Of a stretch of 64,000 bases of DNA, positions 25,937-39,599 are shown one piece after another. The DNA lies in NCBI GenBank assembly GCA_963772255.1, contig CAVYWK010000022.1, forward strand, positions 242,525-306,524. The letters are read 5' to 3'. Source of the DNA: an uncultured Acidobacteriota bacterium (lineage in GTDB: Bacteria > Acidobacteriota > UBA4820 > DSQY01). The translations under genes and the position numbers were made by a program. The notes under the pieces are model-generated. The model was not told the origin of the DNA. It worked only from the letters and a program-made list of their open reading frames with translations, and searched no databases. Position 1 is the stretch's first letter, and every line of letters begins with the position of its first letter.

Positions 25937-26552
<616 letters not shown>

Positions 26553-28191: not shown

Positions 28192-28527
28192 TCAGCGTTT
28201 GTGGGGCCTGGGGTAGGCCTTGAGCGCCCAGAGGAGTTCGCGTGCCTCCCCCTGGAGGGAGGCGGAGAGCTTGTCGCCGGCATCCAGGCTGAGGATGGCC
28301 TCCTGGAAGGCGGCCAACCGGCATGGATTCTGGAGCGGGTGGGGGGCCGGGATTCCCCAGTCGCAGGCGGCGCACGACTCGTCACATCCGATGGCCCGGA
28401 GGGCCTCGGGCAAGTTCATCTGGCGCATGTGGTCCTGGAGGGAGCCCAGAGAGCTGAGTTTCTTCGTGTGGACGCACTCCTCCAGGAGCGAGGCCACTTC
28501 CTTGAGCCATTCCTGCGTGGACTTCAC
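28192..28527 (-). CDS. Hypothetical 111-aa protein with Cx3Cx2C-x13-C (paralogue of 37489-37824)
   Basis: RBS gggagg + GTG. Aligns without gaps to the second copy. Confidence 0.8.
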   Translation of the reverse strand: MKSTQEWLKEVASLLEECVHTKKLSSLGSLQDHMRQMNLPEALRAIGCDESCAACDWGIPAPHPLQNPCRLAAFQEAILSLDAGDKLSASLQGEARELLWALKAYPRPHKR

Positions 28528-28605
28528 GGCGGATCCTCCCCTTCAGGCCATCAGTTTGCCTCAAGGCAGGCCAGGCTGACAAGGTCCCGGGTCGCGGTCC
28601 GCCCC

Positions 28606-28634
28606 TTGACAGGGGGACGAGGCCACATTAGCGT
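28606..28634 (+). promoter_or_regulatory. Putative sigma70 promoter for amrS
   Basis: TTGACA-17 nt-TAGCGT. Confidence 0.5.
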
Positions 28635-28651
28635 CCAACCAGGGGGACGGC

Positions 28652-29899
28652 ATGAAGGAGAAGGACCTCTCCCGGCGAGGGTTCCTGGGGATGGCCGCAC
28701 GGTACGGGTCCGTCCTGGGGGGGGTGGGTGCGCTCCTTTCCAGCCCCGAGTTGCTCCGGCTCCTGGGGTGCGACCCCCTGGATCCGTCCGCGGAGCCCGT
28801 CGACGACATCATCCGGCGGTCTCCTGTGGCAAGGTACTGGACATCGCCCGCAACCCTCGCCCCCGACTGCGGGGCCTGTCATTCTGCGGCGGAACTGGCC
28901 AAGGGCTCCAGGCACACCCACAAGACCCGCGCGGTGAAGTGCCTCCTCTGCGCCCACGGCTGCCTCATCGCCGAGGGGGAACGCGGGCGGTGCCGCGCGC
29001 GCATGAACCTCCGGGGGGAACTGCGCTCCCTGGTCTACGGGCGACCCATGGCCGAGCACGTGGACCCCATCGAGAAGAAGCCGTTCTACCACTTTCTACC
29101 CGGCGCGCAGGCGTACTCCCTGGCCACGTCGGGGTGCCCGCTGCGCTGCAAATTTTGCCAGAACTGGGTCATCAGCCAGGCCCGGCCCGAGGACTACGAC
29201 GCGCCGTTCTGTCCCGCCCCGGCCATGGCGAACCGGGCCAGGGGCCGCGGTGCGCCCGTGCTGGCCTTCACCTACAACGAGCCCACGGTGTTTATCGAGT
29301 ACCTCACGGACATCGCCCGAGCCGCGAGGCCACAGGGGTTGCGGTCGGTGCTCATCTCCTGCGGTTTCATGAACGAGGGACCGCTCAAGGAGATGACCGG
29401 CGTGCTCGATGCCATCAAGATCGACCTGAAGGGATTCTCCCCCAAGTTCTACAGGGAGGTTTGCGGCGCCGAGCTGGCCCCCGTCCTTCGGAGCATCAAG
29501 CAGGTCGCACGGTCGGGCTGCCACCTGGAGATCGTCAACCTCGTGGTGCCCACGCTCAACGACTCGGACACGATGATGACCGAACTGATCAAGTGGATCG
29601 CCGGCGAAACGGGCCCCGACACCCCCGTGCACTTCACGCGCTTCCACCCCGACTACCAGCTCATGAATCTTCCCCCCACGCCCGTGGCCACGCTGGAGAG
29701 GGCCCGAGATGCGGCCATGGGAGCGGGACTGCACTATGCCTACGTGGGCAACGTGCCGGGTCACCCCGGGAACCATACCTACTGCCCCAAGTGCAACATG
29801 GCGGTCATCGAGCGCTCGGGGATGTTTGTCACCGCCATGAGACTCAAGGGCGGGGCCTGTCCCGCGTGCGGTACCAAGATTCCCGGAGTCTGGGTCTAG
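28652..29899 (+). CDS. amrS: AmmeMemoRadiSam radical SAM enzyme with twin-arginine leader
   Basis: SRRGFLG leader, CLLCAHGC..RC, DPIEKKPFYHF, GCPLRCKFCQN, TYNEP, HFTRFHPDY and YVGNV. Confidence 0.92.
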   Translation: MKEKDLSRRGFLGMAARYGSVLGGVGALLSSPELLRLLGCDPLDPSAEPVDDIIRRSPVARYWTSPATLAPDCGACHSAAELAKGSRHTHKTRAVKCLLCAHGCLIAEGERGRCRARMNLRGELRSLVYGRPMAEHVDPIEKKPFYHFLPGAQAYSLATSGCPLRCKFCQNWVISQARPEDYDAPFCPAPAMANRARGRGAPVLAFTYNEPTVFIEYLTDIARAARPQGLRSVLISCGFMNEGPLKEMTGVLDAIKIDLKGFSPKFYREVCGAELAPVLRSIKQVARSGCHLEIVNLVVPTLNDSDTMMTELIKWIAGETGPDTPVHFTRFHPDYQLMNLPPTPVATLERARDAAMGAGLHYAYVGNVPGHPGNHTYCPKCNMAVIERSGMFVTAMRLKGGACPACGTKIPGVWV

Positions 29900-30001
29900 C
29901 GGTCACCGCCAGGGCACCGGACGCGAAGAGATCCACTCGGTCTACCGGACAAAAGGCGGGGAACCGGGCACGAAGCGAAAGAGGCAGATGAGGAGAACCT
30001 C

Positions 30002-31555
30002 ATGAAAAGGCTCTTGATGCCTGGCAAGACCACCTTCGCCTCCGCGCTTCTGGTCACCATGGTGTCTGGGTGGTTCATCTTATCTCCGTCGGATGTCGCG
30101 TCGGAGCCGGTGGACGCCATCGTGCGGCCGCCGGCGGTGGCGGGCAAGTTCTACCCCCAGGACGGGAAAAAACTCCGGTCCGCCGTGGAGGCGTATCTCG
30201 CCGATGCTCTGCCGCCCAAGGGCGAGCAACCCCTGGCCCTGGTGGCGCCCCATGCGGGATACATCTATTCGGGCCAAGTTGCGGCGGATGCCTTCAAGCA
30301 GGCGGCCGGGTATGAGATCGACCTGGTGGTCATCCTCGGGACGAACCACACCGTGCCGCCCTTCGATTCGGTCTCCGTCTTTCAAGGACGAGGCTACGCA
30401 ACCCCGCTTGGCGTGGCGATGACGGACCAGCCGGTGGCCCAGGCGCTCCTGGCGAGCGGGTTCGTCTACAGCCCCGAGGCCCACGCGGCGGAGCATTCGG
30501 AAGAGGTCCAGGTGCCCTTCGTTCAGGTGCTGTTCCCGAAAGCGAAAATCGTGACGGCCATCGTGGGGCGGCAAGACCTGACCCTGGCCACACGGTTCGG
30601 TCAGGCGCTGGCGAGGGTGATCAAGGGTCGAAAGGCGCTCGTCGTGGCGTCTTCGGATCTTTCCCACTATCCGCCCTACGATGAGGCGGCGGCGGCGGAC
30701 AGGGCCACCCTGATGGCGGTGGCGTCTCTGGACCCCAAGGCCGCCGCGGAATCCATCGCTCGGCAGATGAGAACCGGCCGCCCCGGGCTGGAGACCTGCG
30801 CCTGCGGCGAGGGCGCGATCCTCGCGGCCATGGTGGCGGCCAAGGCCATGGGCGCCACCCGGGGCACGGTTCTGAGCTACGCAAATTCCGGTGATACGGC
30901 CATCGGCGAGCGCGACCGCGTGGTGGGCTACGGGGCGGTGGTCTTCACCGCGGGCCCCGGAGGGACCGACACGGCTGCACTGGATGTGCCGCGGGTCGAC
31001 CGCGATGCCCAGCTCTCCGAGGCCGACAAACTGGTCCTGCTGAAGATCGCGCGCTCCACCGTGGAGCGGTATCTCACCACGGGTACGCTCCCCCTCCCCA
31101 GGGCCTCGACCCCCGCACTCCGGGCGAAGCAGGGGGCGTTTGTCACCCTCAAGAAGCACGGCGATCTCCGGGGTTGCATCGGTCACATGGCGGAGGACAC
31201 GCCCCTGGCCCAGGTCGTCTCTCGCATGGCCCTCGCGGCGGCCTTCGAGGACACGCGGTTTCCGCCCGTGCGCTCCGAAGAGCTCGCCTCTTTGGAGGTG
31301 GAGATCTCGGTCCTCACCCCGCTGTCCCCCGTTCCGGGGCCGGGCGCCGTGGTGGTGGGGCGAGACGGCGTGGTGGTTCGAAAGGCGGGGCGCAGTGCGG
31401 TGTTCCTGCCGCAAGTGGCACCCGAGCAGGGCTGGAGCCGGGACGAGCTTCTCGACCACCTCTGCGAGAAGGCGGGCCTGCCCCGCGACTGCTGGCGCGG
31501 GGGCTGTGAGCTCCTCACGTTCCGCGCCATCGTTTTCGAGGAGAAGAAGAAATAA
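30002..31555 (+). CDS. amrBA: AmmeMemoRadiSam protein B (MEMO1-like) - protein A (AMMECR1-like) fusion with N-terminal signal/anchor
   Basis: RPPAVAGKFYP, PHAGYIYSG, EHSEEVQ, SSDLSHY and CG for MEMO. GAFVTL..LRGCIG, DTRF, EISVL and FLPQV for AMMECR1. Confidence 0.92.
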   Translation: MKRLLMPGKTTFASALLVTMVSGWFILSPSDVASEPVDAIVRPPAVAGKFYPQDGKKLRSAVEAYLADALPPKGEQPLALVAPHAGYIYSGQVAADAFKQAAGYEIDLVVILGTNHTVPPFDSVSVFQGRGYATPLGVAMTDQPVAQALLASGFVYSPEAHAAEHSEEVQVPFVQVLFPKAKIVTAIVGRQDLTLATRFGQALARVIKGRKALVVASSDLSHYPPYDEAAAADRATLMAVASLDPKAAAESIARQMRTGRPGLETCACGEGAILAAMVAAKAMGATRGTVLSYANSGDTAIGERDRVVGYGAVVFTAGPGGTDTAALDVPRVDRDAQLSEADKLVLLKIARSTVERYLTTGTLPLPRASTPALRAKQGAFVTLKKHGDLRGCIGHMAEDTPLAQVVSRMALAAAFEDTRFPPVRSEELASLEVEISVLTPLSPVPGPGAVVVGRDGVVVRKAGRSAVFLPQVAPEQGWSRDELLDHLCEKAGLPRDCWRGGCELLTFRAIVFEEKKK

Positions 31556-31666
31556 GACATCACATCCGAGGCCGAAAGAACTCCAGGGAGGAACCGGACA
31601 TCCTCAAGGAGAACAGATTCCCATCCTGGCGCGCGCGGTGAGGTTTCTTTTCTCGGGTGGCGGACG

Positions 31667-33802
31667 ATGCTGTGGCTGGTGGCAGTGGGGCTCGTGACCC
31701 TTTGGGGGCAAGTGCTGCTCCTGAGGGAACTCCTGGTGGCTTTCTACGGCAACGACCTGGTCTACATCGTCGCCCTGGGCGGCCTCATGCTGTTCGCGGG
31801 GCTCGGCGCCCTTCTGGAGCGAAGACTGGGCCGCCACTCCGGAGCGAAGGTGCCCGCGCTCCTCATCGCCTTTGCGGTGGCCCTGCCCGTCCTTCTCGTG
31901 ATCCTCCGCGCGCTGGGGGTCCTGCTCGGCGGGACACCCGGCGCCGAACTCCCCCTGGGCCATCAGTTCCTGGCCCTGGGTCTCGTGCTCGCGCCCTACG
32001 GAATCCTGGCGGGGCTCCTTTTTCAGGGCGCGGCCACGCGCTATCTGAAAGCGGGCGGGACACTGGCGGGCGCCTATGCCACCGAGAGCTCCGGCGCCCT
32101 CGCGGGGGGACTTCTGGCCACGGTCACGGCGTTCCTGGGAATTTCCTGTTTCGCGGGAACGCTCCTGTGCGCGCTCGCGGCGGCTTGCGCGGCCTGCGTA
32201 CCTTGGACCGGCCGGCCACGCTGGCTCGCGGGGGTTGCGGCGCCGGTCATCCTCCTTCTCATGGCCGGATTGGCGCTCTCTCCGGGGCTCGACCGGAGCC
32301 TGACCGCGCTCAGCCATCCGGATCTTCGTGCCGCGGTGGACACGCCCTACGGCAGGACGGTGGTGGCGGGGGGCCTCGGGCAGGTGACGGTTTTTCACAA
32401 CGGCACCCTGGTCAGCGAGAGCCAGGGGACATCCTCGGAGGAATTCGTCCATCTGGCCGCATTGGAATGCGAGCTGCCTCGCCGGGTGTTGATTCTCGGG
32501 GGTACGTCGGAGGGACTCGCGGCCAGGGCCCTGGAACATGGTCCGCAACGCGTGGACCTGGTCGAGATGGACCGCGGCGCAGTGGACATCGAGAGCGGCT
32601 TCCTTCCGGAGAGGGACCGGGCGGCCCTCGCGGACGCGCGCGTGAAGCGTTCTTTCAAAGATCCCCGGCGGTTCCTGGCGGGAGCGGGCTCCTACGACCT
32701 CATCCTGTCGGCGGCGCCGGAACCCGGGTCGGGGGAGTCCAACCGCCTTTTCACCCGCGAGTTCTTTTCGCTATGCCGGGAGCACCTGTCCGCAGAGGGC
32801 GTGCTGGCCCTGCGCCTGCCCTCCTCCGAAAACCTCTGGACGAAGGCCCTCGCTTCGCGGAACGCCAGCGTGCTGGTCGCCCTGCGCGCCGTCTTCCCCC
32901 GGACCCTCGTCCTTCCAGGCACATCCGATCTGGTGCTCGCGTCTCCACGGCCCCTGGTGCGCGACCCCCGGATCCTCGCGGAAAGATGGAGAGCGCGAGG
33001 GATTGCGGCGCGCCTGGTGAACCCCGAGTACATCGCCTACCTCCTGACCAACGATCGTATCGCGGCGGCGGAATCGGCGTTGGCGCGGACCCAGGCTCCA
33101 GAAAATGCCGACGCGCGCCCGGCGTGCTACCCGTTCACGATGCTCCTGTGGCTCTCGAAGTTCTTCCCCGCCCTCGGGAATGTGTCAGCGCCGGGGACCC
33201 TGCCCTGGTACGGATTCGCCCTTCTCCCTGGTCTTCTCGCCGGCGCCGCGCTGCCGGCCCGCCGGCGCAACACGCTCCGCCGAGCCCTCTTCGTGGGTTC
33301 CGCCGGGTTCGCGGGAATGCTTCTGGAGGGCGCGCTCTTGCTTGCGTATCAGGCGCGGCGAGGCGCGCTATACCAGGACCTCGGCCTCCTCCTGACCTGC
33401 TTCATGGGCGGCCTGTGCCTCGGGGCTTGGGGCATGGGCCGCGTGGGGCGCAGGAAGGGGTCGGGTCTTGCAATAGCCCTCTGCACCTCCTCGGTGGGGG
33501 CGGTGTGCGCGTGGGCCATCCAGACGGGAGGGGCGGCGGGCCGGATGGGAACCGGGCTCCTTCTCGCGGCGGCCGGCGCCTGTGTGGGCGCCGCCTTCGC
33601 GTGGGCGGGGGACCAGGGCCAGGCCAACCCGTCAGCCCTGTCGGATCCCTCGCGGGGAATGGCCCCCCTCTACGCGGCGGATCTCTGGGGAGGATGCCTG
33701 GGCGCCCTGCTGGGAAGCTTGGTCTTCCTGCCCTTCTCGGGCCTCGCGTCCAGCGCCGGGCTTGTCTCACTCGTGGGGCTCGCCATGCTCCTGCTGGTTT
33801 GA
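31667..33802 (+). CDS. Multi-TM membrane protein with spermidine-synthase-like (Rossmann MTase-fold) domain
   Basis: Two TM blocks flank VLILGG, VDLVEMD, DPRRFL, YDLIL and LFTREFF. Confidence 0.8.
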   Translation: MLWLVAVGLVTLWGQVLLLRELLVAFYGNDLVYIVALGGLMLFAGLGALLERRLGRHSGAKVPALLIAFAVALPVLLVILRALGVLLGGTPGAELPLGHQFLALGLVLAPYGILAGLLFQGAATRYLKAGGTLAGAYATESSGALAGGLLATVTAFLGISCFAGTLLCALAAACAACVPWTGRPRWLAGVAAPVILLLMAGLALSPGLDRSLTALSHPDLRAAVDTPYGRTVVAGGLGQVTVFHNGTLVSESQGTSSEEFVHLAALECELPRRVLILGGTSEGLAARALEHGPQRVDLVEMDRGAVDIESGFLPERDRAALADARVKRSFKDPRRFLAGAGSYDLILSAAPEPGSGESNRLFTREFFSLCREHLSAEGVLALRLPSSENLWTKALASRNASVLVALRAVFPRTLVLPGTSDLVLASPRPLVRDPRILAERWRARGIAARLVNPEYIAYLLTNDRIAAAESALARTQAPENADARPACYPFTMLLWLSKFFPALGNVSAPGTLPWYGFALLPGLLAGAALPARRRNTLRRALFVGSAGFAGMLLEGALLLAYQARRGALYQDLGLLLTCFMGGLCLGAWGMGRVGRRKGSGLAIALCTSSVGAVCAWAIQTGGAAGRMGTGLLLAAAGACVGAAFAWAGDQGQANPSALSDPSRGMAPLYAADLWGGCLGALLGSLVFLPFSGLASSAGLVSLVGLAMLLLV

Positions 33803-33882
33803 GTGGTCGGTCTCAGTCGACGATGAAGACGCGGGCGCCCCGATCGGAGATGGCGCTGTGGGGGTTGGCTTCGTCGTCGGGT

Positions 33883-35173
33883 TCAGGTTTTGGCGAGGAG
33901 TGCTTCGAGGTAGCGCGATTTCACCTGCCGCGAGGCCAGCGCCTGCTTGATCGGCGGCATCTTGAGGAGGACGCCCAGGATGGCGGCGACGGCCCGGTGC
34001 CCGTAGGAGGCCTGGCCGTCCACGAGGAGTTCTGCGAAACATCCCCGCTCGATGGCCATGAGGACGACCTTGTGCGAGGTGTTGAGGGGGGTGAGGACGC
34101 GCTCCGCCCTGGCGCGGAGGTGGATCGCCTCCTCCGGGCAGGCCTGGACGCAGACGCCGCAGCCCAGGCACCGGTCCTCCTCCAGCTTGGCCGCCTTGGC
34201 GGCCGGTCGCCGGGCGTTGTGGGCGGAGACGAGTTCCAGGGCATCCACGGGGCACGCCGAGACGCACTTCCCGCACCCGTTGCAGGCGGCTCCCGTCAAG
34301 TTCGGGCAGGAAGTTGGTCGTGTGGACGGGACGCATGAAGCCGAAGCGCCGGGCGGCGATCAAGGCTTCGCAGCAGCACCCGCAGCAGTTGCAGATGAAG
34401 CTCACGCCTTCCCTCACGTTCTCCCCAAATTGCACGAGCCCCGTCTCCCTCGCCGCCGCCAGCAGATCCAGGCACTCCGCCGCCTCCACCCTCCTCGCCG
34501 CGCCGTGCCGAGTGAGGGAGGAGGCGGCCGTGCCGAAGGTCATGCAGATGTCCAGGGGGGCGTCGCAGGCCCGGTCCAGGTGGGCCATCTTGTGCCGGCA
34601 GTAGCAGAGGCCCACGCCGATGGCCGCGGCCCCCCGCACGACTTCGCTGGCCCGTTCGTAGTCCAGGACCTGGAGGGGGCCCCTGGCTTCAGCCTTGGGG
34701 TTCACGAGGGCCGTTTCGTTGACGAAAACCCGCCCGAGCTGCGTCTCACCTCGGGCGAAGAGCTCTCGGACGAAATCTTCCTCCACGTTGAGGTACTGGT
34801 AGAAGAGCTCGGAGAGGGCTCTCTGGTCCACGTCGCCTCTCACGCGCATGAGGGAGAACTCGAAAAAACCCGCCATGGGGGGCGGGAGGACATACCGCGT
34901 CTCCCCGTCCTCGGGGTAGTCCAGGAGGAGGGCCCGGTCCGCCAGGGCATCGAGAATCTTCCGCGCGTCCCCTTCGGGCAGGCGCCAGAGCGACGCGGCC
35001 CGCTTGGCCGTAAAGGGCCGGATGGGAAGCTGCGCCACCAGGGCGGCCTCGCGCTCGCTCAGCAGAATCTTCAGAATCTTGAAGAGCAACTCGGAGGGGG
35101 GCGCGCCCTGGGGAAATCGATTGAGCCGATCCACCAGGTCGTCGTAGCTCCCCTTCAGCGTTTGATGGGCCAT
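33883..35173 (-). pseudogene. 4Fe-4S dicluster protein interrupted by a +1 frameshift (may be a sequence error)
   Basis: CYCR and ICNCCGCCC are in one frame; two CxxCxxCxxxCP ferredoxin motifs are in the next. Deleting one base of the 3-base run at 34292-94 gives a 429-aa ORF. Confidence 0.8.
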
Positions 35174-35266
35174 GGCCGGTGCGCTCCCGAACCCCAAGAA
35201 TACACCCAACGGGGCGCGCTAAACTTCTGCCGGTTTCGGGCGTACCATGGCACGGGAGGGAGAGCC

Positions 35267-36487
35267 ATGAGCCGAGCGCGCTACGCATCGCTGAAACCCG
35301 TCTTGGAACCGGACCGCCGGGATTTTCTGAAGACCCTGGGCGTGGCCGCCGCGGGGGGCTTGGTTTTGGGAGTGCCCGATTTCGCGGACGAGCAACCTCC
35401 CGCCAAGCCGGCGCCTCCACCCGCGGAGGTGGAGACCAACATCGCCGACTTCATGAAGGTCCCCAAGGGCAAGTTCGCCCTCCCCGGCCCCTTTCCCGGC
35501 AAGGTGGTCCAGGTCACCGATGCCAAGTCCATGAAGGACCGTAACGTGGACCCCAAAGTGGTGTCCAAGATGTTTGAGAAGGGGCTCACCGAACTCACGG
35601 GGCTGTCGCCCCGGAAGAGCTTCGAACTGCTCTTCACCAAGGATGACGTGGTGGGGATCAAGGTCAACCCCGTGGGCGCCCCCCTCATCAACACCACCCC
35701 CGCGCTCGCCCTGGCCGTGGTTTCTTGGCTCGAAGCCAACGGCCTGCCCCGGAAGAACATCATCATCTGGGACCGCTTCGACGACATGCTCAAGGAGGCC
35801 GGGTTCACGGCCGAGCGCTTCCCCGGCGTCCGCATCGAGTCCCTCCAGACCATGGCCGAGGACGGAAAACCCTGGAAGAACGACAAGGGTGAACACCCCA
35901 GCGCGGCCAATTTCGACAAGGACGCCTACTACTTCGCCAAGGGCGTCATGGGCGCGGGCGTGAAGGGCTACGAGAACGACGACGCCTACGCCAACCAGCA
36001 CGTCTTCACCGGAGAGTATTCCTACTTCGGCAAACTCGTCACCGGCGGCCTCACCAAAATCATCAACCTGGCGGCCTTCAAGAACGCCGGCAACGGCATC
36101 TCCATGGCCACGAAGAACCTGGGCTACGGCGCCATCTGCAACACCGGCCGCCTCCACGCCCCCCTCTTTTTCAAGGTGTGCACGGAGGTCTGCGCCGCGC
36201 CCTGGGTGAGGGACAAGCTCGTCCTGAACGTCACCGACGGCATCCGCGGCCAGTACGACGGCGGGCCCATGGGCAACGAGCAGTTCTACTTCCCGAACCA
36301 TTCGCTCTACTTCGCCACCGACCCCTTCGCGCTGGACCGGGTCTGCCACGACCAGATCGTGTCCAAGCGAAAGGCCATGGGCGTCAAGGTCAACGACCAT
36401 CCGCGCTTCACCGATTACCTGGACTATGCCCAGAAACTCGGACTCGGCGTGGCCGACCCCATGAAAATCAAGCTCTACAAAGTGTGA
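35267..36487 (+). CDS. DUF362-like protein with twin-arginine signal
   Basis: DRRDFLK leader, VGIKVN, IIIWDR, MATKNLGYG, FATDPFALD and LGLG. Confidence 0.78.
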   Translation: MSRARYASLKPVLEPDRRDFLKTLGVAAAGGLVLGVPDFADEQPPAKPAPPPAEVETNIADFMKVPKGKFALPGPFPGKVVQVTDAKSMKDRNVDPKVVSKMFEKGLTELTGLSPRKSFELLFTKDDVVGIKVNPVGAPLINTTPALALAVVSWLEANGLPRKNIIIWDRFDDMLKEAGFTAERFPGVRIESLQTMAEDGKPWKNDKGEHPSAANFDKDAYYFAKGVMGAGVKGYENDDAYANQHVFTGEYSYFGKLVTGGLTKIINLAAFKNAGNGISMATKNLGYGAICNTGRLHAPLFFKVCTEVCAAPWVRDKLVLNVTDGIRGQYDGGPMGNEQFYFPNHSLYFATDPFALDRVCHDQIVSKRKAMGVKVNDHPRFTDYLDYAQKLGLGVADPMKIKLYKV

Positions 36488-36498
36488 GGCCCAACGCC

Positions 36499-37392
36499 AT
36501 GAGATGCCTCGGGGTGCTGACGGCGTTGCTTTTCTTCGGCGTGGCCGCCTCGGCCGCCGGTGATGCGGCCCTCCTGCCCGCAAACGGGTTCGCGCCGGGT
36601 TGGACGCAAGATGGGCAGGCGAAAATCTATGAGGGAGAGGCCCTCTACGACCACATCGACGGAGGCGGGGAAGCATTCCTGGAACTGGGCTTCGAGGCCT
36701 GCATCGTCCAGCGGTATCGGAAGGCCCCGAACCAATTCACCTTCGAACTCTACCGGATGAAAGACACCGCCGCGGCCCTCGGAGTGTACCTCACGAACTG
36801 CGGTCGCGAGACACCCGACGAGTCCTTCGCGGAGCGCCACACGGTAGGCCGCAACCAACTCCTGGCACAGAAGGGCCGGTACTACCTGGTAGCCACGAGC
36901 CCGGAGGCCTCTCCGGGCATGCCGCAGGCCCTCCTGGCCGCGGCCAGAGCCGTGACCGAACGGCTCCCTCAGACTGAACCGCCGGCCATCTTGGCGCTCC
37001 TGCCCAGAGAGGGTCTCATTCCCCATTCTGAGCGTATCGTGCGGGGCTCCATAGGCTTGCAGGCGTTCGTGACCCTCGGTGAGGGGGACGTGCTCCTGCT
37101 CGATCGCAGGGCCACGGCCGTGGCGGGGGACTATCAGGGAAAGGGTGGCGGACAGCGGACGCTGATCGTGGCCGAGTATGCCTCGGATCAAGAGGCGTCT
37201 GCCGCCCTGCGACACCTCACCACCAACCTGGATCCGACGCTGTCCGTTCTCTTTGCGGGCGACCGCGTTCTGGCGTTGAAGGATAGCAAGGGCCGCTTCG
37301 GTGAGGCCACCCTTCAGGGTGCCCGCCTGACGATCCAGCTCGGTTTGGAGACGCCACCCTCCCAACCCCCACAGCGAGGGTCCGCGCGCTGA
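36499..37392 (+). CDS. Secreted hypothetical protein (DUF6599-like)
   Basis: Sec signal (..AASA-AG) and LYDHIDGGGEAFLELGF..YRM..AALGVY pattern recalled for this family. Confidence 0.6.
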   Translation: MRCLGVLTALLFFGVAASAAGDAALLPANGFAPGWTQDGQAKIYEGEALYDHIDGGGEAFLELGFEACIVQRYRKAPNQFTFELYRMKDTAAALGVYLTNCGRETPDESFAERHTVGRNQLLAQKGRYYLVATSPEASPGMPQALLAAARAVTERLPQTEPPAILALLPREGLIPHSERIVRGSIGLQAFVTLGEGDVLLLDRRATAVAGDYQGKGGGQRTLIVAEYASDQEASAALRHLTTNLDPTLSVLFAGDRVLALKDSKGRFGEATLQGARLTIQLGLETPPSQPPQRGSAR

Positions 37393-37488
37393 TTAAGCCC
37401 GGGAGGTCAAGTCAACCTCCACGGCGCGCCTGACTCTGTCAGGATCGGAGTCACCGGAGCGGAGTTCCCGCTCCCGTAAGAAAAGGGT

Positions 37489-37824
37489 TCAGTGCTTCCG
37501 GTGCACGGGTAGGCTGTCCAAGATCTCCAGGAGGGCCGCCGTGTCCCGCGGGGCGGGGGTCTCGCGGTTGGGGATCGCCTGCAGATCCTCGATAGCCTCC
37601 TGAAGCGCCACGAGTCTGCAGGTCCCGCGAAGCGGGTGCCCTCCAAGAAAGCCCCAGGAGCATTCCGAGCAGTGGTCCCCGCAACCCAGATCGGTCTCGG
37701 CCTGGCTCATGTCGATTTTCGTAATGTGGTCCTGGAGGAAGTCGGCCAAGTTGCGTCGCCCGCCCCAACGCGCCGTCTTCAGATATTTTCTCGCCTGCTG
37801 TATCCAGCGCTCGGTTTCATTCAC
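37489..37824 (-). CDS. Hypothetical 111-aa protein with Cx3Cx2C-x13-C (paralogue of 28192-28527)
   Basis: RBS aggagg + GTG. Aligns without gaps to the first copy. Confidence 0.8.
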   Translation of the reverse strand: MNETERWIQQARKYLKTARWGGRRNLADFLQDHITKIDMSQAETDLGCGDHCSECSWGFLGGHPLRGTCRLVALQEAIEDLQAIPNRETPAPRDTAALLEILDSLPVHRKH

Positions 37825-38078
37825 GTGGGCCTCCTGCCGGGGGAAAAAGGGTGCACCCGCGGCCTACTTAGAAGAGAACCGTCCTTGCGTGCGATTTGTT
37901 CCGTTCCCCCGTCCCTTGAGGAAGAATCGCACGACGGGTGTGTCACACGAAGTCCTGCGGGAGCCTCCAGGGTGAGCTGGTCATCGGCCATGGATTCGGC
38001 CATGGATTACGCCCCATGCGAACGAGGCGGGCGGTTGGACCGCCCGCCTCGCAATGGGGTGGGACAGCGCACGTGCCG

Positions 38079-38429
38079 TTAGGTCTTGCGGATCTGTCCG
38101 ACCCTCAGGCCCGGGAGTCCGTCGCGCTCCACCAGCACACCGCTCACCGTGGCCCATTGATCCCGGCCCGCCAGGCGCTCTGCGGTATTGAACGCGGCCT
38201 CTGCGTTCGATGACGGGAGGAGGAGATAGACCTGTCCCTCGGGCGTCACGACGCCCAGCTTGTAAGTGACCCCGGTGGGGGTTTCGCCTACTCTCACGTG
38301 CTCGACCTGGCCGTTCACCTCGATGGATTTGGCCCCATGCATTGCCGAAGAGGCGAATGCCGCGGGCGCCAAGCCCATGGTCGCGCAAACCGCCGCCACA
38401 CCAATCATTTGTTTCAGTTGGATCTTCAT
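38079..38429 (-). CDS. Small secreted hypothetical protein
   Basis: RBS aggagg, signal peptide ending AFA-SS and beta-rich mature region. Confidence 0.75.
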   Translation of the reverse strand: MKIQLKQMIGVAAVCATMGLAPAAFASSAMHGAKSIEVNGQVEHVRVGETPTGVTYKLGVVTPEGQVYLLLPSSNAEAAFNTAERLAGRDQWATVSGVLVERDGLPGLRVGQIRKT

Positions 38430-38765
38430 GGCCGTAACCTCCTAGCTGACGGGTGAGCCGCAAGGCTCGTGCCAGTGCCTGAGAAGGGATAACTACTTGA
38501 TAAAATGGCAGTTATGTCTGAATAGCGCCCAGGCGGCCGCGCCACCGTGGCGTGCCAGGGCGGCAGAGTCCCGCGCGGTGATCGAGGCCTCATGCCCGTC
38601 ATTCCGAAAGGACCGTGCACCGATCGGCCCTGCCGCCACCTAATGCGCCCGGCGCCGCGCGCGCGACGGTGCCCTACTTACAGATAGGCCCATCGTCCCA
38701 CCATGGTGGTCAAGCCTGGTGAGTTCTCCCTAGGTATTTCCCCCCTCCACGCCCGAACGATTCGC

Positions 38766-39599
38766 TCAGGCTTCCTCATCGGGAGGCGGGGGCTTGCGTG
38801 CCTTGGCGGGCTTGGGAGGGCGCTCAACGCGGAGAACCGCCGTGTGGACAACTCGATCGTGGGGCAGGCGGCGGTTGGAATCCCGCCAGAGGGACACGAG
38901 GGATAGACCCAGGGTGGCCGGGATCTCCAGGTACGCTGCGGCCCGCTCGAAACTCTCGAAGAGACCGAGCCGCTCCCCACCCAGTTGCACGACCCGGATC
39001 CCAAGGAGGCGCTTCCCGAGGGTCTGCCCCCGGCGCGAGGCGTGGCAGAGGGTGAAGTAAAGGGCCGCCACCCCGAAAAGGGCGAGGGCCCGGAAAGGCT
39101 TGGGGATGAGCTTCTCGACCTCCAAGAGGATCATCTTGTGGGGCAGGTGGACCTCTGGCCGCTCGCCGATGGCCAGCGCGACCATCATGTCGTAGCCCTC
39201 GAAGGCCGCAGCGAGTCTCACCTTATCGCCCCGCTCTACGGCCTCGACTGCTTCGGCAGGCAGGCCGGGGGCTTCGATGCGAACCAGGAGGGCCCCCACC
39301 GCCTCCCAGGCCACCTTGGCTTCGGGGGGGGCGGGCTTGGTGAATAGGAGGGTCTGGAGCCCCCGGTAGGCTTCGGGGTCGGTCATCCGCAAGGAACAGG
39401 CGGCGGCCGCGATGGCCACCGCCAGCGCCGGAAGGAGGAGGATCAGATAGTCTATGCCGAGTGCTACGGCCCGCCGGAGAGGCCCGGCCAGCGGTTGGCC
39501 GAGAAGCTCCGGCGCTACGTACATGGGTTCGTTCGTCAAATGGCGCGGACCCGTCTTCCCCCAGATGCCCATACGCATTCCTCCCCACCCTCCGGGCAT
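38766..39599 (-). CDS. RDD family membrane protein (start uncertain: 39599, 39539 or 39524)
   Basis: RRAVALGID, GQTLGKRLLGIRVV, FER and HDRVVHTAV. Confidence 0.88.
   Translation of the reverse strand: MPGGWGGMRMGIWGKTGPRHLTNEPMYVAPELLGQPLAGPLRRAVALGIDYLILLLPALAVAIAAAACSLRMTDPEAYRGLQTLLFTKPAPPEAKVAWEAVGALLVRIEAPGLPAEAVEAVERGDKVRLAAAFEGYDMMVALAIGERPEVHLPHKMILLEVEKLIPKPFRALALFGVAALYFTLCHASRRGQTLGKRLLGIRVVQLGGERLGLFESFERAAAYLEIPATLGLSLVSLWRDSNRRLPHDRVVHTAVLRVERPPKPAKARKPPPPDEEA

What the first reader, a model, noticed from the sequence alone, without database searches (positions are those of the whole stretch)
28192..37824. Two 111-aa paralogues with a conserved Cx3Cx2C-x13-C motif bracket the AmmeMemoRadiSam module
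Seen: 28192-28527 and 37489-37824 are the same length and align without gaps, 33/111 identical by hand count. Shared residues include W7, LQDH30-33, GC48-x3-C52-x2-C55-xWG, HPL63-65, CRL69-71 and QEAI75-78. One is divergent from amrS and the other convergent after the DUF6599-like gene. The spacing matches the radical-SAM triad but the proteins are far too small for that fold and have a fourth Cys. Inference: an unrecognised small Fe-S or Zn protein family, perhaps a cluster carrier or sensor for this module.
Basis: partly seen in the sequence, partly recalled or inferred. Interest (0 to 1): 0.72.

Follow-up and report, generated by a model that had tools for sequence, protein, structure and literature searches.

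The report
Orphan four-cysteine small protein pair
Two real, related 111-residue genes belong to an unnamed protein family found only in one order of uncultured Acidobacteriota; four invariant cysteines point to a bound metal, but their position on either side of the AmmeMemoRadiSam genes is a local gene-order quirk of one genus and not evidence of shared function.

Summary
Both ORFs exist on the minus strand (28192-28527 and 37489-37824). Each has a strong ribosome-binding site and a GTG start. They are exactly 33/111 identical without gaps (shuffles 7.3±2.6; BLASTP E 6e-19).

They belong to a sharply bounded orphan family:
- 15 clusters at 50% identity among 1.84 billion proteins, and 48 clusters at 90% identity among 5.8 billion.
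- All members are ~110 aa and named only "hypothetical protein".
- No Pfam, NCBIfam, PADLOC, PHROG or PDB sequence match.
- No Foldseek match to a confident AlphaFold model (pLDDT 87, five helices).

Family-wide, only C48, C52, C55 and C69 are invariant. dN/dS is 0.03-0.44. The family occurs in 23 of 25 sampled genomes of the window's taxonomic family and 3 of 4 of its sister family, but in 0 of 32 elsewhere in the phylum.

A soluble Cys4 metalloprotein (Fe-S or Zn) is the best reading. The link to the Amr module is not supported: AmrS occurs in 54 of 61 relatives against 26 for the small family, and the two are adjacent only in the window's genus. Elsewhere the gene sits upstream of a BNR/Sortilin gene, overlaps ispG, or stands alone. 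Function remains untested. Interest is modest.

The parts
28192..28527 (-). Paralogue A: 111 aa, soluble (pI 6.4, 12.3 kDa). Belongs to the A-type clade and is the positional counterpart of the ancestral copy next to mntP. Invariant C48, C52, C55, C69; an extra non-conserved C18.
28535..28541 (-). Shine-Dalgarno sequence GGGGAGG, 7 nt upstream of the GTG start of A.
   Evidence: read directly from the sequence
37489..37824 (-). Paralogue B: 111 aa, soluble (pI 6.2, 12.6 kDa). Belongs to the B-type clade, whose members elsewhere have no conserved neighbour. Invariant C48, C52, C55, C69.
37830..37835 (-). Shine-Dalgarno sequence AGGAGG, 5 nt upstream of the GTG start of B.
   Evidence: read directly from the sequence
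37456..37474 (-). GC-rich 7-bp hairpin (GGAGCGG-GAACT-CCGCTCC) beginning 14 nt after the stop codon of B, between the convergent B and DUF6599 genes. It has no T-run, so the terminator scan did not call it.
   Evidence: read directly from the sequence; not reported
28528..28651 (.). 124-bp divergent intergenic region between A and amrS. A CCTGTCAAGG motif is conserved in 3 of 4 congeners. No sigma-70 consensus promoter and no Rfam element were found.

Best explanation
A and B are two anciently diverged paralogues (30% identity) of an orphan protein family confined to one order of Acidobacteriota. The proteins are soluble, cytoplasmic and about 12 kDa, with five predicted helices. The loop between helix 3 and helix 4 carries C-x3-C-x2-C-x13-C, the only invariant residues in the family. 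These four cysteines most likely bind one metal centre. I narrowly favour a fully Cys-ligated Fe-S cluster, because three clustered Cys plus one remote Cys is a typical cubane pattern, but a Zn(Cys)4 site is almost as likely. The protein then works as a free-standing small redox, cluster-handling or metal-dependent adaptor protein, not as a subunit of any one operon. Its position beside amrS in this window came about by a genus-specific rearrangement. The ancestral copy sat next to mntP, upstream of a BNR/Sortilin gene. In this genus that gene now lies on another contig and the AmrS-Memo/AMMECR1 genes occupy the neighbouring position. Shown: real genes under purifying selection, paralogy, narrow distribution, invariant Cys4, no known homologue or structural neighbour, and no conserved link to Amr. 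Inferred: metal binding, the kind of metal, and the cellular role.
For: The genes are real and related. The family is sharply bounded and unannotated: 15 clusters at 50% identity in 1.84 billion proteins and 48 clusters at 90% identity in 5.8 billion, with nothing between E = 1e-19 and 0.1. Sources name them only 'hypothetical protein'. Only C48, C52, C55 and C69 are invariant across members that share as little as 20-30% identity; G47, W57 and G58 are nearly invariant. There is no signal peptide or hydrophobic segment (maximum Kyte-Doolittle score over 19 residues 0.6), so conserved disulfides are unlikely. The AlphaFold model of A has pLDDT 87 and pTM 0.81, with helices at 4-21, 24-35, 39-45, 70-79 and 89-104 and isolated beta-bridges at C55, G58 and C69. 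B gives the same helix order at pLDDT 70. Distribution: 23 of 25 sampled genomes of family f1, 3 of 4 of f2, and 0 of 32 elsewhere in the phylum. AmrS occurs in 54 of 61. Gene order: MntP|A|AmrS in all 6 genomes of the window's genus only; small gene followed by BNR/Sortilin in g3, g4 and g6; etfA-ispG followed by the overlapping small gene in 3 of 3 genomes of g8; unrelated neighbours for B-type copies. The BNR orthologue of this genome is on contig C29. Weak support for Fe-S: translational coupling to ispG, which encodes a [4Fe-4S] enzyme that needs a low-potential electron donor (established knowledge), and adjacency to a radical SAM gene in this genus.
Against: No metal binding has been measured, and I could not inspect the model coordinates, so the convergence of the four Cys is inferred only from the DSSP bridges. 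The residues between the Cys are often acidic (CDESC, CGDHC, CNENC), which is unusual for Fe-S loops. An all-helical fold is not ferredoxin-like. The most widespread neighbour, a secreted BNR/Sortilin propeller, has no obvious link to redox or metals. The ispG and amrS adjacencies are each confined to one genus and could be chance.
Confidence: 0.6

Rival explanations
1. One reading: A and B are dedicated Fe-S cluster carriers, electron donors or sensors for the AmmeMemoRadiSam module that they flank.
For: A is transcribed divergently from amrS across 124 bp, and this arrangement is kept in all 6 sampled genomes of the genus. AmrS is a radical SAM enzyme that needs a one-electron donor (established knowledge). 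The module also contains Fer4 and DUF362 genes. In a sister genus the small gene is coupled to another [4Fe-4S] enzyme gene, ispG.
Against: AmrS is present in 54 of 61 relatives, 28 of which lack the small family. In every genus other than the window's, both AmrS copies are on different contigs from the small gene. B-type copies elsewhere have unrelated neighbours. AmrS and Memo-AMMECR1 here carry export-type N-termini (earlier notes), whereas A and B are cytoplasmic.
Confidence: 0.1
2. A zinc-thiolate redox switch or regulator that works like ZAS anti-sigma factors such as RsrA. Zn(Cys)4 holds the helical bundle in a partner-binding form, and oxidation releases the zinc and the partner.
For: The size (~110 aa), the soluble helical bundle and the i, i+4, i+7 ligand spacing resemble H-x3-C-x2-C of ZAS domains (established knowledge). 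Several B-type copies lie convergent to a SpoIIE/PP2C phosphatase gene, a partner-switching enzyme type. SOD and MntP genes lie next to the A and C-type copies.
Against: The zf-HC2 model finds five ZAS domains in this genome but neither A nor B. hhalign of the family against those ZAS domains gives a probability of 0.4%. No sigma-factor gene is adjacent in any locus. Foldseek returns no anti-sigma structure. The fourth ligand lies downstream of the motif, not about 25 residues upstream as in ZAS. The SpoIIE adjacency comes from closely related genomes.
Confidence: 0.15
3. The protein binds no metal. The cysteines are instead substrates of modification (a RiPP-like precursor or radical-SAM substrate) or form structural disulfides.
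For: A lies next to a radical SAM gene in this genus. Cys-rich small ORFs next to rSAM genes are often precursors (established knowledge).
Against: The Cys motif lies in the middle of a conserved, confidently folded 5-helix protein, with a conserved C-terminal helix after it. That is unlike a leader-core precursor. Most family members have no rSAM neighbour. No peptidase or transporter genes typical of RiPP loci are conserved nearby. The cytoplasmic location argues against disulfides.
Confidence: 0.05

Closest known systems
Radical SAM superfamily (PF04055), Cx3Cx2C cluster motif
   Same: Identical spacing of the first three cysteines (C-x3-C-x2-C). The only library hits, at noise level, align this stretch to B12-rSAM models (TIGR04072, E 0.0086, 14.8 bits against a cut-off of 360).
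   Different: 111 aa and all-helical, whereas the radical SAM core is a (beta/alpha)6 partial barrel of about 200 aa or more. There is a fourth invariant Cys, which would leave no open iron for SAM. No PF04055 hit.
ZAS (zinc-binding anti-sigma) domains, e.g. RsrA; Pfam zf-HC2 PF13490
   Same: Small soluble helical proteins with three metal ligands at i, i+4 and i+7.
   Different: Cys replaces the first His. The fourth ligand is 13 residues downstream and not ~25 upstream. No HMM hit, hhalign probability 0.4%, no neighbouring sigma factor, and no structural match.
WhiB-like (Wbl) [4Fe-4S] proteins of Actinobacteria
   Same: Lineage-restricted, ~80-120 aa helical proteins with four invariant Cys and multiple paralogues per genome. 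This is an analogy of kind drawn from my own knowledge.
   Different: Different Cys spacing (C-xn-C-x2-C-x5-C), a different phylum, no Pfam hit, and no Wbl structure among the 50 best Foldseek matches listed.
Bacterial 2x[4Fe-4S] ferredoxins (Fer4 families)
   Same: Small soluble proteins with 3+1 Cys ligation of a cubane cluster.
   Different: No CxxCxxCxxxCP motif, no Fer4 Pfam hit, and a helical fold instead of the (beta-alpha-beta)2 ferredoxin fold.

Membership tests
Radical SAM superfamily (PF04055) | Cx3Cx2C motif that binds the [4Fe-4S] cluster | tested here: met
   C48-x3-C52-x2-C55 is invariant across the family.
Radical SAM superfamily (PF04055) | Match to the family HMM and a partial TIM-barrel core of about 200 residues or more | tested here: not met
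   No PF04055 hit for any of 32 members at E<=5. The protein is 111 aa and the model is all-helical.
ZAS anti-sigma domain (zf-HC2, PF13490) | HMM match, or profile similarity to genuine ZAS domains | tested here: not met
   PF13490 finds 5 sites in this genome, none of them A or B. hhalign of A2 against the genome's own ZAS alignment gives a probability of 0.4%.
ZAS anti-sigma domain (zf-HC2, PF13490) | Gene adjacent to its cognate ECF sigma factor gene | tested here: not met
   No sigma factor gene beside any family member in more than 30 loci. A true ZAS gene in this genome (L064) does have one next to it.
AmmeMemoRadiSam system (AmrS TIGR04337 with AmrA/AmrB) | Co-occurrence and conserved adjacency with amrS across lineages | tested here: not met
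   AmrS in 54 of 61 genomes against 26 of 61 for the small family. Adjacent only in the window's genus; on different contigs in the other genera.
4Fe-4S ferredoxin (Fer4 Pfam clan) | CxxCxxCxxxCP motif and an HMM match | tested here: not met
   No Fer4-clan hit for any member. The motif spacing differs.
WhiB-like proteins (PF02467) | C-xn-C-x2-C-x5-C motif, HMM match, structural similarity | tested here: not met
   No Pfam hit. No Wbl structure among the 50 best Foldseek PDB matches listed (90 at E<=10). Different spacing.
Cys4 metalloprotein (generic kind) | Stoichiometric metal or cluster bound by the four cysteines | not testable with these tools
   Only indirect evidence: invariance of the four Cys, cytoplasmic location, and beta-bridges at C55 and C69 in the model.

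The most novel reading that the evidence does not exclude
The family is a new, all-helical class of small Fe-S proteins that act as dedicated low-potential electron donors or cluster chaperones for [4Fe-4S] enzymes. It would serve IspG in the sister genus, where the genes overlap, and the exported-type AmrS radical SAM enzyme in this genus. That would give the enigmatic AmmeMemoRadiSam system its first identified accessory redox partner.
Probability: 0.12. Interest if true: 0.7.

Novelty: new variant of a known kind. Interest (0 to 1): 0.3.

Why it matters
If the Cys4 site is confirmed, this would be a protein family with no sequence or structural relative in current libraries, present in almost every sampled genome of one order of uncultured Acidobacteriota. 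That would make it a candidate lineage-specific redox or metal protein and a candidate new Pfam family. Its value is limited because the family is very narrow, it has no conserved partner, and no experimental system exists. The negative result is also useful. The small proteins should not be annotated as components of the AmmeMemoRadiSam system, whose function remains unknown.

Tried and rejected
1. Known-family assignment. Pfam and NCBIfam at E<=10 for A and B, Pfam at E<=5 for all 32 members, PADLOC and PHROGs gave only noise.
2. Solved structures. The profile against PDB sequences gave nothing below E 0.4. Foldseek of the pLDDT-87 model against PDB (best E 0.18, generic helical bundles such as the Vps28 C-terminal domain, the QseE sensor and hemerythrin, TM about 0.5 or less) and against BFVD (best E 0.74) gave nothing usable.
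3. ZAS anti-sigma hypothesis. Rejected by the HMM search, hhalign and gene context.
4. A third paralogue on contig C26. Rejected: it is a strain-variant contig.
5. BNR/Sortilin as an obligate partner. Rejected: the orthologue in this genome is on another contig, and a 59% identical orthologue exists in a family that lacks the small gene.
6. Distant relatives. A broadened profile that included the C-type and f2 members found no new annotated homologue. P0038 (909 aa) was a spurious repeat hit with no Cys.
7. Regulatory clues. No sigma-70 consensus promoter, no Rfam element (one sub-threshold whalefall-1 hit inside gene A, E 0.045), and no recognisable operator in the upstream alignment.
8. Expression evidence.
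9. Literature. Nothing on this family, and no functional study of AmmeMemoRadiSam partners, in the held library.
10. Cys-Cys distances in the model. The coordinates are not exposed to the Python box.
Full report
OBSERVATION. The two ORFs are real. Both lie on the minus strand, at 28192-28527 (A) and 37489-37824 (B), and each has 111 codons. Shuffling B 100,000 times gave 7.3±2.6 identities with a maximum of 20, and BLASTP gives E = 6e-19. Orthologue pairs from related genomes give dN/dS of 0.03-0.44, so these are protein-coding genes under purifying selection. Both proteins are soluble and slightly acidic (pI 6.2-6.4) and have no hydrophobic segment or signal peptide.

HOW MANY COPIES. The assembly is an 86%-complete MAG of 38 contigs and gives three hits. 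The third is on contig C26. That contig is 11,151 bp long and aligns end to end with window 28539-39465 at 93-98% identity. Its copy of B differs at 2 of 333 nucleotides. I read this as a strain-variant contig. The genome therefore has two paralogues, like four of its five congeners.

THE FAMILY. Word-seeded searches of 5.8 billion proteins found 10 relatives of A and 12 of B. All are about 110 aa, have no Pfam domain and carry only the name "hypothetical protein". An exhaustive HMMER profile search of 1.84 billion cluster representatives found only 15 clusters. One of these was a spurious Cys-free repeat protein. A broader profile that included the most divergent members recovered 48 clusters at 90% identity, with nothing between E = 1e-19 and 0.1. 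The family boundary is therefore sharp.

In whole genomes the family occurs in 23 of 25 sampled genomes of the window's taxonomic family and in 3 of 4 genomes of a sister family in the same order. It occurs in none of 32 genomes from the rest of the phylum. The titled records are all uncultured Acidobacteriota MAGs, and one is labelled Thermoanaerobaculaceae.

A maximum-likelihood tree resolves three clades:
- a "C-type" clade, usually single-copy, found in the window's family outside its own genus and the only type found in the sister family;
- the A-type clade, found in the window's genus;
- the B-type clade, found in several genera.

Across all of them only C48, C52, C55 and C69 are invariant. 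G47, W57, G58, L15, L98, L99 and L102 are nearly invariant. H33 and H63, which A and B share, are not conserved in the C-type clade.

NO KNOWN RELATIVE. Pfam and NCBIfam at E<=10 returned only a noise-level alignment of the Cys stretch to B12-radical-SAM models (14.8 bits against a cut-off of 360). Scanning all 32 members separately against Pfam at E<=5 gave no recurrent hit. PADLOC and PHROGs gave nothing. The family profile found no PDB sequence below E 0.4.

AlphaFold2 with the family alignment gave a confident model of A (pLDDT 87.3, pTM 0.81). It has helices at 4-21, 24-35, 39-45, 70-79 and 89-104. The Cys motif lies in the loop between helices 3 and 4, and there are isolated beta-bridges at C55, G58 and C69. 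B gave the same helix order with lower confidence (pLDDT 69.9). Foldseek found no significant neighbour in the PDB (best E 0.18, generic helical bundles, TM about 0.5 or less) or in the viral library.

The closest motif analogue I know of is the H-x3-C-x2-C of ZAS anti-sigma domains, so I tested it directly. The zf-HC2 model finds five genuine ZAS domains in this genome but neither A nor B. A profile-profile comparison with those domains gives a probability of 0.4%. No family member has a sigma-factor gene as a neighbour.

THE PROPOSED LINK TO THE AMR MODULE. Pfam annotation gives the following gene order in the window:
- DLH(-), MntP(+), A(-);
- AmrS radical SAM(+), Memo-AMMECR1 fusion(+), a spermidine-synthase-like membrane protein(+), a Fer4 protein(-), Tat-signal DUF362(+), DUF6599(+);
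- B(-), a 116-aa secreted protein(-), an RDD protein(-) and a glycyl-radical enzyme(-).

The MntP|A|AmrS arrangement is kept in all six sampled genomes of the genus, and the full order through to B is seen where contigs are long enough (G001). It goes no further than the genus. AmrS (TIGR04337) is almost universal in the phylum, in 54 of 61 genomes, and 28 of those lack the small family. In every other genus that has the small gene, both AmrS copies are on different contigs.

In genera g3, g4 and g6 the C-type gene sits 60-125 bp upstream of, and on the same strand as, a secreted BNR/Sortilin propeller gene of about 1,120 aa. In g4 and g6 this gene in turn abuts mntP. A conserved unannotated 126-aa gene often lies just upstream of the small gene, also in g2. 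So A occupies the ancestral position beside mntP. In this genus the BNR gene now lies on contig C29, and amrS and its companions have become the neighbours. The BNR gene also exists in lineages without the small gene, so it is not an obligate partner either.

In the low-GC sister genus g8 the small gene overlaps the 3' end of ispG, downstream of etfBA, in 3 of 3 genomes. B-type copies and others on long contigs have unrelated neighbours: a convergent SpoIIE/PP2C gene with a divergent PALP gene, a PIN/RHH toxin-antitoxin pair, a histidine phosphatase, Peptidase_S51 and DHOR. No partner is conserved across the family. The "bracketing" of the Amr module is gene order specific to one genus.

WHAT IT MOST LIKELY IS. 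Four cysteines are invariant in a cytoplasmic, confidently folded small protein whose other residues drift to 20-30% identity. That is the classic signature of a metal centre. The pattern of three clustered Cys and one remote Cys is typical of cubane Fe-S ligation. The two lineage-specific adjacencies to genes for [4Fe-4S] enzymes that need a reductant (ispG and amrS), in an organism with many anaerobic radical enzymes, tip me slightly towards an Fe-S cluster. The acidic residues within the motif, the all-helical fold and the ZAS-like i, i+4, i+7 spacing keep a Zn(Cys)4 site, structural or redox-switching, almost equally likely. Metal binding itself is inferred, not shown. I could not measure Cys-Cys distances because the model coordinates are not exposed. 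The literature held here says nothing about this family or about accessory proteins of AmmeMemoRadiSam.

VERDICT. The "for this module" part is not supported. The family is new in the sense of having no homologue or structural neighbour. It is also one of many lineage-restricted small Cys-rich proteins of unknown function, is very narrow in distribution, and has no conserved partner to guide function. Interest is modest (0.3). A low-probability reading would be considerably more interesting: a new helical Fe-S redox partner for IspG or AmrS.

Noticed in passing
window 25949-26552 (-): The Fe/Mn superoxide dismutase gene is frameshifted. An intact 202-aa orthologue matches 26552-26367 in frame -3 and then 26377-25949 in frame -1. 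This is either an assembly indel or a pseudogene.
   Followed up: partly
window 33886-35197 (-): The Fer4-domain gene inside the Amr neighbourhood is frameshifted near 34289-34320 (frame -1 to frame -2). The strain-variant contig C26 carries an intact 437-aa version (L004 4269-5582). Two frameshifts within 10 kb suggest indel errors in this assembly.
   Followed up: partly
G000 contig C26 (L004 1-11151) vs window 28539-39465: The whole 11-kb contig is a reversed copy of the amrS-to-RDD stretch at 93-98% identity. It has an extra 273-bp segment (L004 5590-5864) that forms part of a small cupin-like ORF which appears to lack an intact counterpart in the window. Strain heterogeneity in the MAG is the likely cause.
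   Followed up: partly
L048 6881-8405 (+), L049 4921-6469 (-), L027: In the low-GC sister genus (G026, G027, G028) the small Cys4 gene overlaps the end of ispG, downstream of etfB-etfA. This suggests translational coupling to a [4Fe-4S] enzyme gene.
   Followed up: partly
L039 8416-8796 (-); also L040, L041, L043, L045, L026: A conserved 126-aa gene with no Pfam hit lies directly upstream of the C-type small gene in genera g2, g4 and g6. With the downstream BNR/Sortilin gene it forms a three-gene string.
   Followed up: no
window 28652-31555 (+): AmrS begins with a twin-arginine-like leader (SRRGFLG followed by a hydrophobic stretch), and the Memo-AMMECR1 fusion begins with a signal-peptide-like segment. 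Earlier first-reader notes flag the same features. Genomes of the window's taxonomic family usually carry two AmrS copies.
   Followed up: no
window 28242-28296 (+): A sub-threshold Rfam hit to whalefall-1 sRNA (22.6 bits against a gathering score of 37, E 0.045) lies antisense within gene A. It is most likely chance.
   Followed up: no
L056-L059 and L066, about 20 bp downstream of the B-type gene: A SpoIIE/PP2C phosphatase gene lies convergent to the B-type gene, with a divergent PALP (PLP-dependent enzyme) gene upstream. This is conserved in five related MAG contigs. A 797-aa SpoIIE gene also lies 2 kb from a C-type copy in L050.
   Followed up: partly
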